The position numbers are program-made. A stretch of DNA of 64,000 bases from the NCBI GenBank assembly GCA_964485195.1, contig CAZAIK010000007.1:1-64000 (forward strand). Direction: 5' to 3'. This document shows, piece by piece, positions 45,001 to 48,000 of the stretch. How positions within the stretch are numbered: position 1 is the stretch's first letter; each line of letters starts with the position of its first letter. This DNA comes from an uncultured Methanosarcinales archaeon (GTDB lineage Archaea; Nanobdellota; Nanobdellia; Woesearchaeales; CAIVOO01).

Positions 45001-48000
45001 TTCAGAGCAGACAGACGAAGTGCTGATAGATGCCGGCGGAGGGTTCAGAAGGCTTTTTACTTCCACAGAGCCGGATGCCAGGATAAAAAGGATAAACAAT
45101 GCTGAATATTACGCGATAGAACTGACTCTTTCTCCAGATGAGTCAGCGGACGTAACAGTCAAGACAAGCTACGCTCCCATATTATACATAATAATAATAC
45201 TCATCGTGGCAGGCATACTTTACTTTGCCTTCAGGACGCCGCTCATCGTGGGCAAGGAAGCAAAGGAAGTGGACATGGAAGAAGGAGGCATAGCAAGGGT
45301 CTCAATTCTCCTAAAACTGAAAAACAGGGGAACCAAAGAACTGAAAAACGTGAAAGTGATAGAAAAGGTGCCCAGCATAGCAAAAGTCCAGGTAAAGGAA
45401 AGCGAGACTTTGAAGCCGTCAAAGCACTACAATTACAAGGACGGCATGGTGATGGAATACAACATAGGCAAGATGGAGCCCGGCGAGATAAGGTTCATCA
45501 GTTATCATATGAAGACAAGGCTGGCAGTGATCGGCGGATTGAGGCTGAAGCCGGTGATAGCCCAATATGACGGCAGGAAAACATATTCAAACCCTGTTGA
45601 GGTTTACACTCCCTGAAAGTGGTTAAAAAAGGAAATATTTTAAAATAGTGCCTGTTTCTCTTTTTGCATGGATGCCAGGAGTTTTTATGAATCAAGAGAA
45701 AAGGTGTTGGGCAGGATATTCTCACAGTTGCAGGCAGATTCACAGTCACTTTCTCCTGAACTGGCTCCGCCTGAAGCAATTGAGGACAGTATCCTAAGGG
45801 ACTTGCTCGCAATAAGCTATATATATGCAACAGGTTTTGCGGGAAAGAAAAGATTGATGGGGGAATTCGGAGGGGTTCTGCCACAAAACCCGGAAAACAA
45901 CAAAAGGATACTTGCTATTTCAAAGCCCAGCCTGGAGAAAGTAATGTGCGGGATAATTGCAAAAACCACGAAAAGCAGGAACTCACACTTGCCAAATAAT
46001 GCAGCAGAGCTTTTTTTTGGGCACGATGTGGACGCGCGAATGGACCCGATGCTTGAGGACGGCTCCGGGCTAACAATTGTGGATGGAAATCAGAATGTTG
46101 CGCATTACGACTTCACAACCTGCGCAGGGAAAAAAGATGTTCTTGACATCCTCAAAACAAATCTTTATCTCCTGCTTGGCGCGGAAGGGTTTTGTGTCTG
46201 TTCAAACAAGCACCTTCCTGGTCAGCAATATGTTTTCAATGTTCCTGCCAATCCAGAGCTTTTTGAAAAATTAAAACCGACCAGCATTGAAAAAATCGAA
46301 GAGAGAATAGAGATTGTCAAGAAAGCTAAAGAATGCATTTTGCCGCAAGATTATATTGCAGGATTTCACATAGCATATGAAAATAGGAGAGTTAATGTTG
46401 CGCCCCTCATCGCATCCAGTGACGCAGAGAAGCACAGCCAGTTCTTTTCAAAGCACGGCCTGGAATGTACGCCTTCTGCCATTTATGCAATTGGCGAAAG
46501 TGATGCTTTCGGAAGACCTGTAGGGATAGCAGTAAAGCCAATAGTTGATAACCAGGGTTAAGTCAACTTGCCTGTGTTAGCGCCAAGCGTAGTCCGCGGT
46601 TAACCTGTCAGATGCCAGGTAAATCGGACGCTGAAGCATTTAACACTATGCCAACGGAGCGCGCTAACACAGCTACACAACTAACTTGACTTAACCAATA
46701 ACCAGTAATATTTATAAATCCCTGATTTTCTTCTTATTTTACCCCGCTTAGCTCAACGGCAGAGCGTTCGGCTGTAGAAGACGCAAGACAAAATCCCTTA
46801 TGGGTTTAGGATGAGATGCGTCCAGCTGAAACCGAAAGGTTCCCAGTTCAAATCTGGGAGCGGGGATACTTAAAATCTTTTCAATACTGGAAATAAATAA
46901 TTACGAAAGATTTATATACATTTTTGTACTAAATAAACATTAATAGGTGAACCACTAAAATGTCCCAAGCAGCTATACCTAATTTATTTGAACAGAAGGA
47001 AAGCAAATCAGCCTGTTGAGCGGAGACATCCACGAGTCTGCAAGAATAATAATACCCTCTGAAGAAATTATTCAGCAAGGGGAATGGCAGCCGGTCATTG
47101 AGTTCAATCCAGGAGCGGTTTATGACCATCTTGAAAGAAAAGATATAAAACCGTCTGCAGGGATTATGGGATTCAAAAACGATAAGGTAAGGGCCTATAC
47201 TGTTGATTAATAAAAATGGAAAAGGAATATTCAAGGTTTTCAGCACAGTATGTGGGGCCCAGGGTGGGCACGGGAAAGGATGACATCCCATTCTCAGAGT
47301 TAGTCTCGGTCCTGGAATCATTTGGAGTGAAGGACCTTATTTACCAGCCTGTCCAGAAAAAGGTAGCGTTCTCTGTCAGCCCCGAGGAGCTTGAAAAATT
47401 AGGGGAACTGGACTGGCTTGAAAAGATAGAATTAATAGGGCAATTTGGCATATCTCCTGGGAAAAGGGCAGAGAATCCTGCGCCCAAAAGTGAAAGGTTA
47501 TGGGAGGAATTGCAGTATGGCATTGGGGAGGAGGAAACAGATAAATAGAAATCTCACAAAATTCCAAAAGCTTTATAAATAATAAGCAAAATTTCTGCTG
47601 TATGCCAGCCGACCTTTCTTTTTAGGAATAAACGACAAATCGTAGCGTTAGCTGTCTAAAAAGAGAGAAATGGCTGTTATAGGCCAAAGGGACGCCCTGG
47701 TAGTCTAGTGGCCTAGGATAGAGCCCTGTCGAGGCTCTGACCCGGGTTCAAATTGAAAAGCATGAAAATCCCGGCCAGGGCGCTTAAATTCACGCTCCTC
47801 CAGTAAAATGAGCGCCAGGAGCATTTTACAGGAGATGGGCCGGTGGCGCAGTCCGGAAGCGGCAGAACAGCTGGGCAATAGCGCATCTGGCTTTTAACCA
47901 GGTGGTCGCGGGTTCGAAACAAAAAGTGAAAATCCCGTCCGGCCCATTTAAAATTCGAGAGGCGAAGAAGGTTTAGCATGGCAGAGAAGAAAAAACATTC

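What a model noticed while it worked through the whole genome (the two positions that open the first line are those of the whole stretch)
47694..47946. Hidden tRNA genes: T-loop (59/60) introns and triple-intron tRNAs missed by standard finders
The genome is 99.5% complete, yet the ready-made RNA table lists only 23 tRNA rows (one truncated) and lacks, among others, both tRNA-Glu, Asp, Lys-UUU, initiator Met, Cys, Ile-UAU and three of four Ser. A cloverleaf-plus-BHB threading search brings the set to 42 complete genes covering all 20 amino acids (20 newly placed). Only 5 of the 42 are intron-free. Twelve genes carry an intron inside or at the edge of the T-loop (11 between loop nt 6 and 7, Sprinzl 59/60; Gly-UCC at 53/54), 14-40 nt long, each closed by a bulge-helix-bulge motif; at least 13 have a D-loop/D-arm intron, two an intron at 8/9; at least five genes have three introns (Arg-CCU C1:84162-84318, Glu-UUC C4:2184-2329, Ser-UGA [...]
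Evidence so far: Own dynamic-programming search that threads a cloverleaf through each locus with up to 3 excised segments and scores the BHB at each junction: spliced products are 71-86 nt cloverleaves with 7/7 acceptor pairs, 5/5 T-stem pairs and TTCRAAT loops; T-loop junctions score 4/4 central-helix and 3/3 exon-helix pairs in 10 of 12 genes. Table of 34 resolved genes with coordinates of every intron in call 38; further genes: Glu-UUC, Ser-CGA, Lys-CUU C1:72921-73054, Pro-GGG/CGG C5:15235-15388, Leu-UAA C5:46127-46319, Ser-GCU C1:51180-51409, Leu-UAG C20:1016-1179, Val-GAC C7:15601-16058 (read by eye, calls 26, 37, 130). rna.tsv: 23 tRNA rows; ARAGORN with intron option: 27 genes, several with wrong ant [...]
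(Added by a program. Inside this text positions count along the whole contig: contig position 1 is position 1 of the stretch shown here. "Call 12" and the like, gene names such as g00115 and contig names such as C1 are that model's own, and its searches are not shown. The text may have been shortened before it was handed on; [...] marks where a part breaks off. The agent that wrote the report below was given it as the finding of a first reader that could run no searches.)

Follow-up and report, generated by a model that had tools for sequence, protein, structure and literature searches.

The report
Intron-split tRNA genes, Woesearchaeota archaeon
Two real transfer-RNA genes (for aspartate and lysine) of a tiny uncultured archaeon are each interrupted by a short intron in the T-loop, a known kind of protein-spliced intron that is very common in this lineage and hides most of its tRNA genes from ordinary gene finders.

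Summary
Observation confirmed. Window 47694-47782 is tRNA-Asp(GUC) with a 16-nt T-loop intron. Window 47837-47946 is tRNA-Lys(UUU) with a 22-nt D-loop intron and a 14-nt T-loop intron. Both T-loop introns lie between loop nucleotides 6 and 7 (59/60).

An independent threader gave 35 genes scoring 22.5 or more, against 0 loci at 21 or more in the reversed genome. Six further genes were resolved by relaxed or targeted threading, Rfam or eye. Val-GAC, which holds an assembly gap, brings the set to 42 anticodon genes for all 20 amino acids.
- 5 are intron-free.
- 12 have T-loop introns (11 at 59/60, Gly-UCC at 53/54).
- 5 have three introns.

The Asp-Lys-rpoH locus is conserved in relatives. Among 137 distinct orthologues, 76 carry a 59/60 intron of 13-131 nt, always ending N-G-R-R plus two nucleotides, as pairing with U54-U55-C56 predicts.

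EndA and RtcB genes are present; no RNA data exist.

The kind is known: 59/60 introns in ARMAN-2, three-intron tRNAs in Thermoproteales. This scan has already reported it in at least 54 other genomes. New here: the only EndA is a compact alpha4-like protein without the published specificity loops.

The parts
47694..47782 (+). tRNA-Asp(GUC) gene, the only Asp tRNA gene found in the genome; anticodon at 47728-47730
   Evidence: Sequence read; threader score 30.0; Rfam partial hit of 22.7 bits, below the cut-off; orthologues upstream of rpoH in relatives.
47753..47768 (+). 16-nt T-loop intron of tRNA-Asp between loop nt 6 and 7 (59/60). The T stem is the outer helix. TTCA (54-57) pairs with TGAA of the intron. 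Both splice sites sit 2 nt 3' of this helix (AA|T and AA|T). The boundaries can slide by a few nt without changing the product.
   Evidence: helix pairs 4 central, 3 outer, 2 inner. The RNA minimum-energy fold of the gene shows the T stem, this 4-bp helix and a 3-nt 3' bulge.
47837..47946 (+). tRNA-Lys(UUU) gene, single copy; anticodon at 47893-47895
   Evidence: threader score 27.0; not reported by Rfam at E<=10 or by ARAGORN.
47857..47878 (+). 22-nt D-loop intron of tRNA-Lys, after G19, with both bulges and an inner 3-bp helix (full bulge-helix-bulge)
   Evidence: helix pairs 4 central, 2 outer, 3 inner (GTCC GG|A AGC..GCT GGGC AA|T). tRNA-Lys(CUU) has an intron at the same site.
47919..47932 (+). 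14-nt T-loop intron of tRNA-Lys at 59/60. TTCG pairs with TGAA (one G-U). There is no inner helix, so this is a relaxed bulge-helix-loop form.
   Evidence: helix pairs 4, 3, 0. Matches the pattern GGGTTCRA..GRAARTCCC.
46742..46866 (+). tRNA-Tyr(GUA) with a 53-nt intron at the canonical anticodon-loop site; the only tRNA in the window seen by Rfam
   Evidence: 53.8 bits; score 30.0.
47978..48211 (+). rpoH (RNA polymerase subunit H), followed by the split rpoB genes at 48204-49688 and 49688-51487. This conserved neighbour anchors the orthologous tRNA loci.
   Evidence: ORF list; the gene name is my reading of the translation; synteny in 29 relatives.
22062..22288 (-). tRNA-Ser(UGA) with three introns: D-loop 95 nt, anticodon loop 12 nt, T-loop 37 nt
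   Evidence: score 23.5; helix pairs 4,3,3 / 4,3,0 / 4,3,2.
15601..16058 (+). Candidate tRNA-Val(GAC). The acceptor halves and T arm are clear. The interior holds a 57-nt tandem repeat and a 100-N scaffold gap, so the intron layout is unresolved.

Best explanation
These are working archaeal tRNA genes interrupted by protein-spliced (bulge-helix-bulge) introns.

Proposed T-loop mechanism: in the precursor, the 5-bp T stem stacks on a 4-bp helix made by T-loop nucleotides 54-57 (UUCR) and the NGRR block that ends two nucleotides before the intron's 3' end. The two cut sites lie two nucleotides 3' of each strand of that helix. This is the same geometry as the canonical 37/38 intron on the anticodon arm, which also has a 5-bp stem, a 7-nt loop and an intron between loop nt 6 and 7.

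The single splicing endonuclease EndA would cut both sites and the RtcB ligase would join the exons. That frees U54-U55-C56 for the T-loop/D-loop elbow.

Shown: the sequence, the pairing potential, its conservation, and the presence of both enzyme genes. Inferred: cleavage, ligation, and the order of intron removal.

The trait belongs to the whole lineage (Woesearchaeota-type Nanoarchaeia), not to this genome alone.
For: 1. Removing the inserts restores full cloverleaves. 35 genes score >=22.5, against 0 decoy loci >=21.
2. Asp-GUC and Lys-UUU are the only genes for their anticodons in a genome that is 99.47% complete.
3. 10 of 11 introns at 59/60 have a 4/4 central helix, against 18 of 841 background T-arm hits.
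4. Orthologues upstream of rpoH, 137 distinct gene sequences:
- Asp: 46 of 67 have a T-loop intron, all at 59/60, 16-131 nt; 12 of 67 have no intron at all.
- Lys: 30 of 70 have one, 13-83 nt.
- Of the 76 introns, the two positions opposite U54 and U55 are always purines. The position opposite C56 is G in 75 of 76. C opposite position 57 occurs only when 57 is G (12 of 12).
5. The RNA minimum-energy fold of the Asp gene shows the T stem, the 4-bp helix and the 3-nt bulge.
6. Enzymes:
- EndA: a single 183-aa gene with both Pfam domains. Tyr, His and Lys stand in the aligned catalytic motifs of solved EndAs; which residues form the triad is recalled.
- RtcB gene present.
7. Identical intron-bearing DNA is present in contigs of two sequencing runs of one study.
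8. The pattern GGGTTCRAN{9,39}GRAARTCCC hits 6 of 6 true sites and 0 decoys in this genome. It hits 210 of 401 genomes of the phylum sample, while the backwards control hits 8 times in 7 genomes by my hand count. Five of the 210 (G264, G410, G377, G341, G352) are unpublished genomes; without them the figure is 205 of 396.
Against: - No RNA data: no listed sequencing run holding this stretch is RNA, so splicing is inferred.
- The minimum-energy fold of the Lys gene does not show the weak central helix.
- In 15 of the 76 orthologous introns the pair next to the 5' bulge (position 57) is a purine-purine mismatch (11 G-A, 2 A-G, 2 A-A).
- The shortest introns lack an inner helix: 12 of 17 introns of <=18 nt have fewer than 2 inner pairs. 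Published work says alpha4-type enzymes do not cut this relaxed form (passages).
- My threader uses the splice motif to accept D-arm and anticodon-arm introns, so motif scores there are partly circular. T-loop introns were placed without it.
- Two canonical-site introns (Thr-CGU, Ser-GGA) score poorly on my simple motif measure.
Confidence: 0.9

Rival explanations
1. The interrupted genes are decaying pseudogenes, and the inserts are junk insertions.
For: Standard models score them below threshold. No expression data exist.
Against: They are the only genes for their anticodons in a 99.47% complete genome. All stems stay fully paired. The inserts always sit at the same loop position with the same pairing block in 76 orthologues. 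37 of 42 genes would have to be dead.
Confidence: 0.02
2. The T-loop insert is not removed by EndA. It stays in the mature tRNA as an expanded T-loop, or another nuclease pathway processes it.
For: The only EndA is a compact alpha4-like protein without the insertion loops tied to cutting relaxed motifs. The short introns are relaxed motifs.
Against: Insert length varies from 13 to 131 nt and sequence varies freely, except for the block that builds the splice helix. Orthologues without any insert exist. An expanded T-loop would remove U54-U55-C56 from the conserved elbow (established tRNA structure knowledge). A 13-nt ARMAN-2 intron at 59/60 is cut by endonucleases in vitro (Fujishima 2011, passages).
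Confidence: 0.04
3. Part of the 42-gene set is over-fitted. With up to three free inserts a cloverleaf can be threaded through non-tRNA DNA, or some splice sites and anticodons are misplaced.
For: - Val-GAC cannot be resolved across its gap.
- Pro-GGG has C at position 33.
- Four extra loci at score 22.0 with very long inserts look spurious.
- Boundaries can slide by 1-4 nt.
- Thr-CGU and Ser-GGA were placed by eye.
Against: The decoy genome gives nothing >=21. The set contains each anticodon once, apart from two CAU and two GUA, and covers 20 amino acids. The two genes in the finding's coordinates score 30.0 and 27.0 and have orthologues.
Confidence: 0.3
4. The inserts are assembly or binning artefacts.
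For: The genome is a 32-contig metagenome assembly with N gaps. Two tRNA loci sit at gaps.
Against: The 47650-47968 stretch is identical in contigs of two runs. The same architecture recurs in many independently assembled genomes.
Confidence: 0.01

Closest known systems
ARMAN-2 (Ca. Micrarchaeum acidiphilum) pre-tRNA-Cys(GCA), 13-nt intron at 59/60, and pre-tRNA-Pro(GGG), introns at 53/54 and 59/60 (Fujishima et al. 2011, PMC3239211; passages read)
   Same: Same positions (59/60, and 53/54 as in Gly-UCC here). Same short relaxed bulge-helix-loop form. Also a DPANN archaeon with a small genome and many interrupted tRNA genes (56% there).
   Different: ARMAN-2 uses a three-unit epsilon2 endonuclease with a specificity loop; here there is a single 183-aa alpha4-like EndA lacking that insert. 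Here 11 of 42 genes carry a 59/60 intron and 37 of 42 are interrupted. The ARMAN-2 intron was cut in vitro; nothing here has been tested.
Multi-intron tRNA genes of Thermoproteales (Sugahara 2008 and Fujishima 2010, as cited in Fujishima & Kanai 2014, PMC4033280; passages read)
   Same: Up to three introns per gene. Most genes interrupted (up to 87%). Similar intron sequences in different tRNA species: here the T-loop introns of Ser-CGA, Ser-UGA and Pro-GGG share 14-20 nt exact stretches and a common hairpin.
   Different: Those organisms have heterotetrameric (alpha-beta)2 endonucleases with the Crenarchaea-specific loop. This is a DPANN lineage with one small EndA gene.
DPANN alpha4-type EndAs linked to disrupted tRNA genes (Kaneta et al. 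2018, PMC5829648; passages and one supplement searched)
   Same: [quoted passage not shown] It says the incomplete tRNA sets predicted for new DPANN genomes need manual curation; this finding supplies that curation for one genome.
   Different: It attributes broad specificity to an 'L3' loop (the Nanoarchaeum-type basic insert around the catalytic His). By alignment, this EndA and 29 relatives lack that insert and have the same loop length as M. jannaschii EndA. I could not see whether their Woesearchaeota example carries L3, because the figure is not held.
[quoted passage not shown]
   Same: Standard annotation misses many introns, mostly in the D arm. About 2 introns per gene. Introns sit at splice-motif sites.
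   Different: Different superphylum. The abstract makes no statement about a T-loop 59/60 hot spot.

Membership tests
Archaeal bulge-helix-bulge (EndA-spliced) tRNA introns | Removing the insert restores a canonical cloverleaf with conserved loop nucleotides | tested here: met
   Asp and Lys: 7/7 acceptor pairs, paired D, anticodon and T stems, T-loops TTCAAAT and TTCGAAT.
Archaeal bulge-helix-bulge (EndA-spliced) tRNA introns | Two splice sites in 3-nt bulges on opposite strands, separated by a 4-bp helix and flanked by helices | tested here: met
   The Lys D-loop intron is the full motif (helix pairs 4,2,3). The T-loop introns have the outer helix, the 4-bp helix and the 3' bulge. Their 5' bulge is closed by 2 pairs (Asp) or by none (Lys), which is the relaxed form. 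The geometry and cut register are partly recalled, and are consistent with the 3-4-3 description.
Archaeal bulge-helix-bulge (EndA-spliced) tRNA introns | Splicing endonuclease and RNA ligase encoded in the genome | tested here: met
   EndA at C6:47319-47867. RtcB at C1:64771-66063.
Archaeal bulge-helix-bulge (EndA-spliced) tRNA introns | Spliced mature RNA, or cleavage in vitro | not testable with these tools
   No RNA holder is listed for this stretch.
59/60 T-loop introns (ARMAN-2 type) | Insert between T-loop nt 6 and 7, with the T stem as outer helix | tested here: met
   11 genes in this genome; 76 of 137 Asp and Lys orthologues, all at this position.
alpha4 homotetrameric EndA (M. jannaschii type) | A single gene of about 180 aa with N-terminal and catalytic domains, and no second subunit gene | tested here: met
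   183 aa, PF02778 plus PF01974. A six-frame search of the genome with the protein finds only itself, plus one hit at E=1.4. The family search finds one hit. 40 of 41 genomes searched (40 relatives and this one) have a match; most have one of about 180 aa and a few have fragments.
alpha4 homotetrameric EndA (M. jannaschii type) | Tetramer formation | not tested
   Inferred from size and domain order only.
Broad-specificity EndAs with insertion loops (CSL/L1, ASL/L2, Nanoarchaeum-type L3) | An extra loop with conserved Lys/Arg near the active site | tested here: not met
   - The alignment to N. equitans alpha shows 6 residues missing from the basic loop before the catalytic His.
- The alignment to ARMAN-2 shows the 'yk' insert of the ASL and the 240-247 loop missing.
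- The alignment to M. jannaschii 1a79 has a single one-residue gap and none in the catalytic domain.
- 30 EndAs of the order align with one 1-residue indel.
- The CSL site could not be judged: the alignment to the S. tokodaii chain starts at residue 45.

The most novel reading that the evidence does not exclude
A whole order of DPANN archaea (Woesearchaeota type) may run an almost fully interrupted tRNA gene set on a minimal alpha4 EndA. That set includes relaxed, inner-helix-less introns at 59/60. The enzyme has none of the three insertion loops so far held responsible for cutting non-canonical introns.

If so, the rule 'alpha4 means strict motif, canonical site only' fails. The 59/60 site would behave as a second quasi-canonical site because the T arm copies the anticodon-arm geometry (5-bp stem, 7-nt loop, cut between loop nt 6 and 7).
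Probability: 0.45. Interest if true: 0.6.

Novelty: new member of a known kind. Interest (0 to 1): 0.38.

Why it matters
- Annotation. Routine pipelines report about half of the tRNA genes of these genomes. That can be misread as tRNA loss or host dependence in DPANN archaea. A curated set shows a complete decoding repertoire: 42 genes for 20 amino acids.
- Enzymology. The lineage offers a natural test of what sets EndA substrate range. Abundant relaxed T-loop introns coexist with a compact loop-less alpha4-like enzyme that is nearly invariant around the active site across 30 genomes.
- Intron evolution. The Asp-Lys-rpoH locus, which carries or lacks 59/60 introns of 13-131 nt in close relatives, is a convenient system for dating intron gain and loss.

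Tried and rejected
- RNA evidence: no RNA holder is listed for window 47600-48300. Laying the two best DNA runs showed only identical contigs and other organisms' conserved exon pieces, with no joints.
- ARAGORN default and the Rfam gathering threshold miss both genes. ARAGORN with introns forces every insert into the anticodon loop and miscalls anticodons, for example 'Lys ttt' at C1:51179-51410, which threads as Ser-GCU.
- My first threader allows one intron per arm and applies a motif threshold. It failed on Thr-CGU, Ser-GGA, Pro-GGG, Leu-UAA, Leu-UAG and Val-GAC. A two-introns-per-arm version resolved Leu-UAA, Leu-UAG and Pro-GGG. It gave no solution for Thr-CGU and an implausible two-intron solution for Ser-GGA.
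- A general pattern without T-stem bases (GTTCRA..GRAARTCY) is useless: 18 hits against 12 in the reversed control.
- Literature: a search for '59 60' with 'tRNA intron' and 'archaea' found one irrelevant paper. Searches combining Woesearchaeota or Pacearchaeota, T-loop and tRNA introns found no paper describing this lineage's T-loop introns. Subscription journals are not covered.
- The supplement of Kaneta 2018 held as text did not show whether their Woesearchaeota EndA has the L3 loop.
- I considered and dropped folding EndA, a complex prediction of the tetramer, and fetching whole relatives' genomes for a full census. They were not needed for the verdict.
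Full report
THE REGION

Window 47694-47946 holds two tRNA genes on the + strand, directly upstream of rpoH (47978-48211) and the split rpoB genes.

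tRNA-Asp(GUC), 47694-47782:
- It has a 7-bp acceptor stem, a D arm, an anticodon arm with loop CTGTCGA, a 4-nt variable region and a T stem CCGGG/CCCGG.
- Its T-loop is TTCAAA followed by a 16-nt insert (47753-47768) and then T.

tRNA-Lys(UUU), 47837-47946:
- It has a 22-nt insert in the D-loop after G19 (47857-47878).
- It has a 14-nt insert in the T-loop (47919-47932).

ARAGORN finds nothing in the window. Rfam at gathering score finds only the neighbouring tRNA-Tyr at 46742-46866, which has a canonical 53-nt intron.

GEOMETRY OF THE T-LOOP INTRONS

In both T-loop cases the T stem is followed by loop nucleotides 54-57 (TTCA or TTCG). These can pair with TGAA, placed two nucleotides before the 3' end of the insert.

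Each strand of this 4-bp helix is followed by a 3-nt stretch that holds a junction (AA|N and AA|T). That is the 3-4-3 bulge-helix-bulge layout recognised by archaeal splicing endonucleases, as described in the passages of Fujishima 2011.

It is also the layout of the canonical 37/38 intron moved to the T arm, which is likewise a 5-bp stem with a 7-nt loop. That last point is my inference.

The minimum-energy fold of the Asp gene shows the T stem, the 4-bp helix and the 3-nt 3' bulge. The Lys fold shows only the T stem.

The 5' bulge is closed by two pairs in Asp and by none in Lys. These are therefore relaxed (bulge-helix-loop) forms. The Lys D-loop intron has the full motif with a 3-bp inner helix.

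GENOME-WIDE CHECK

The genome is 1,126,147 bases in 32 contigs, 99.47% complete and 0.56% contaminated.

The Rfam tRNA model gives 22 hits over its cut-off. ARAGORN with introns gives 26 genes, several with wrong anticodons.

I wrote an independent search:
- T-arm anchors need G53-C61, at least 4 more stem pairs and TTCRA, with an optional insert at any loop position.
- Each anchor must be joined to a 7/7 acceptor stem.
- The interior is then threaded with at most one motif-bearing insert per arm.

Results:
- 35 genes score 22.5 or more. The reversed genome gives none at 21 or more; its top score is 20.5.
- Relaxed anchors added Thr-UGU.
- A two-inserts-per-arm version added Leu-UAA, Leu-UAG and Pro-GGG.
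- Thr-CGU and Ser-GGA are Rfam hits whose canonical introns I read by eye.
- Val-GAC (window 15601-16058) has clear ends, but its interior holds a 57-nt tandem repeat and 100 N.

Breakdown of the set:
- Five genes are intron-free: Asn-GUU, Phe-GAA, Ala-UGC, Arg-UCG and Val-CAC.
- Twelve genes have a T-loop intron of 14-40 nt. Eleven are at 59/60 (Asp, Ala-GGC, Lys-UUU, Ser-CGA, Ser-UGA, Glu-CUC, Glu-UUC, Ile-UAU, Leu-CAA, Arg-CCU, Pro-GGG). One is at 53/54 (Gly-UCC).
- Fourteen genes have a D-arm intron.
- Five genes have three introns: Ile-UAU, Arg-CCU, Ser-UGA, Glu-UUC and Leu-UAA.
- Leu-UAA has a full-motif intron at 8/9.

The T-loop inserts were placed without using the splice motif. Ten of the 11 at 59/60 nevertheless have a 4/4 central helix (Arg-CCU has 3/4), against 18 of 841 other compatible T-arm hits.

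RELATIVES

Record titles of the nearest rpoB homologues read Candidatus Woesearchaeota, Candidatus Nanoarchaeia or Nanoarchaeota archaeon. Some third-party assemblies are labelled otherwise. This agrees with earlier notes of this scan.

The order tRNA-Asp(GUC), tRNA-Lys(UUU), rpoH is conserved in the 29 relatives' loci from the genome search.

Pooling those loci with 80 named loci gives 137 distinct Asp or Lys gene sequences:
- 46 of 67 Asp genes carry a T-loop intron, always at 59/60, of 16-131 nt.
- 30 of 70 Lys genes carry one, always at 59/60, of 13-83 nt.
- 12 Asp and 6 Lys genes have no intron at all.

The inserts vary freely, except for the four nucleotides that face 54-57:
- They are purines opposite U54 and U55 in 76 of 76.
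- G stands opposite C56 in 75 of 76.
- C stands opposite position 57 only when 57 is G (12 of 12).
- Fifteen of the 76 have a purine-purine mismatch at that last pair.

Longer introns usually have an inner helix (37 of 59 with at least 2 of 3 pairs). Short ones mostly do not (5 of 17).

A strict pattern (GGGTTCRAN{9,39}GRAARTCCC) hits exactly six true sites in this genome and none in the reversed genome. It hits 210 of 401 genomes sampled across the phylum. By my hand count that is 172 of 278 in the same order (including this genome) and 38 of 123 in other orders of the class. The backwards control matches 8 times in 7 genomes.

Five of the hit genomes (G264, G410, G377, G341, G352) are unpublished. 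Without them the tally is 205 of 396.

The trait therefore belongs to the lineage. With 6 pattern hits, this genome is not extreme: some relatives have 10-12.

ENZYMES

One EndA gene (C6:47319-47867, 183 aa) carries the N-terminal and catalytic Pfam domains. A six-frame search with the protein finds no second copy; the next hit has E=1.4. RtcB is present.

In the phmmer alignments to solved structures, the protein compares as follows:
- It aligns to M. jannaschii alpha4 EndA with a single one-residue gap, and none in the catalytic domain.
- It lacks 6 residues of the basic loop before the catalytic His of the N. equitans alpha subunit. Hirata 2012 describes that loop (passages) and Kaneta 2018 calls it L3 (passages).
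- It lacks the ARMAN-2 ASL insert.

Thirty EndAs of the order align with one single-residue indel and an almost invariant FRVYDRG(V/I)KPGEDH segment. Forty of the 41 genomes searched (40 relatives plus this one) have a match. Most have one of about 180 aa and a few have fragments.

Published passages say that alpha4 enzymes need the strict motif and that loop-bearing enzymes cut relaxed ones. Kaneta 2018 links DPANN alpha4 enzymes bearing L3 to disrupted tRNA genes. Here the loop is not seen.

WHAT IS KNOWN AND WHAT IS NEW

Already in print:
- Introns at 59/60 and 53/54 in ARMAN-2, with in-vitro cleavage of a 13-nt intron at 59/60 (Fujishima 2011, passages).
- A maximum of three introns per tRNA, and up to 87% interrupted genes.
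- Intron sharing between tRNA species in Thermoproteales (Fujishima & Kanai 2014, passages).
- Heavy hidden interruption in Asgard archaea (preprint abstract).
- Kaneta 2018 says outright that incomplete tRNA sets in new DPANN genomes point to unidentified disrupted genes.

This scan has already reported the same thing on other DNA: 56 notes in at least 54 genomes hold these words. They include T-loop introns in tRNA-Val and tRNA-Lys(UUU) and a three-intron tRNA-Arg(CCU) of Woesearchaeota.

My literature searches found no paper describing the abundance of 59/60 introns in Woesearchaeota. The library lacks most subscription journals.

I therefore class the finding as a new member of a known kind. 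The part worth following is the mismatch between a loop-less alpha4-like EndA and many relaxed non-canonical introns.

LIMITS

- No RNA evidence exists.
- tRNAscan-SE was not available.
- Motif scores for D-arm and anticodon-arm introns are partly circular, because the threader uses them.
- Splice sites can slide by a few nucleotides.
- Val-GAC is unresolved.
- The same-order and same-class split is a hand count from the table.

Noticed in passing
window 15601-16058: The candidate tRNA-Val(GAC) gene contains a 57-nt tandem repeat (15862-15977, 2 copies after the gap, more before it) and a 100-N scaffold gap. Each repeat unit copies a stretch that includes CCTTGACG, the anticodon-loop 5' side. 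Either a very long repeat-bearing intron or a mis-scaffolded locus.
   Followed up: partly
G000 C1:103700-104270 (minus strand), outside the window: The 3' part of tRNA-Leu(CAA), from the variable arm through the T-loop intron to about 30 nt past the gene, is repeated about 110 nt downstream and again across a 100-N gap. It is either an att-like duplication or contig-end overlap left by scaffolding.
   Followed up: partly
G000 C1:74494-74694, window 22062-22288, G000 C5:15235-15388: The T-loop introns of Ser-CGA, Ser-UGA and Pro-GGG share the same ends and a GCATTCCC/GGGAATGC hairpin (20 identical nt between Pro and Ser-UGA), together with identical T arms. This suggests an intron or T-arm copied between non-isoacceptor genes, as described for Thermoproteales.
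   Followed up: partly
G000 C1:89303-89386 and C6:7831-7919: tRNA-Thr(UGU) and tRNA-Thr(CGU) have T-loops TGCAACT and TGCAAAT (G where the near-universal U55 stands), and D-loops without the G18-G19 pair. This may be a co-varying change of the tRNA elbow. Thr-GGU has the normal TTCAAAT.
   Followed up: no
G000 C5:15235-15388: tRNA-Pro(GGG) has C at position 33 of the anticodon loop (loop CCGGGGC), where U is almost universal.
   Followed up: no
G000 C16:5982-6111: A tRNA-Ile with anticodon UAU (three introns) is present, and only two CAU genes were found: an initiator-like one with a GGG/CCC anticodon stem and an elongator. AUA may therefore be read by UAU rather than by a modified CAU tRNA.
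   Followed up: no
L001:1234-1290 (EndA N-terminus): The EndA starts with a very basic tail: 8 Lys/Arg in the first 13 residues. I did not check whether this tail is conserved or touches RNA.
   Followed up: no
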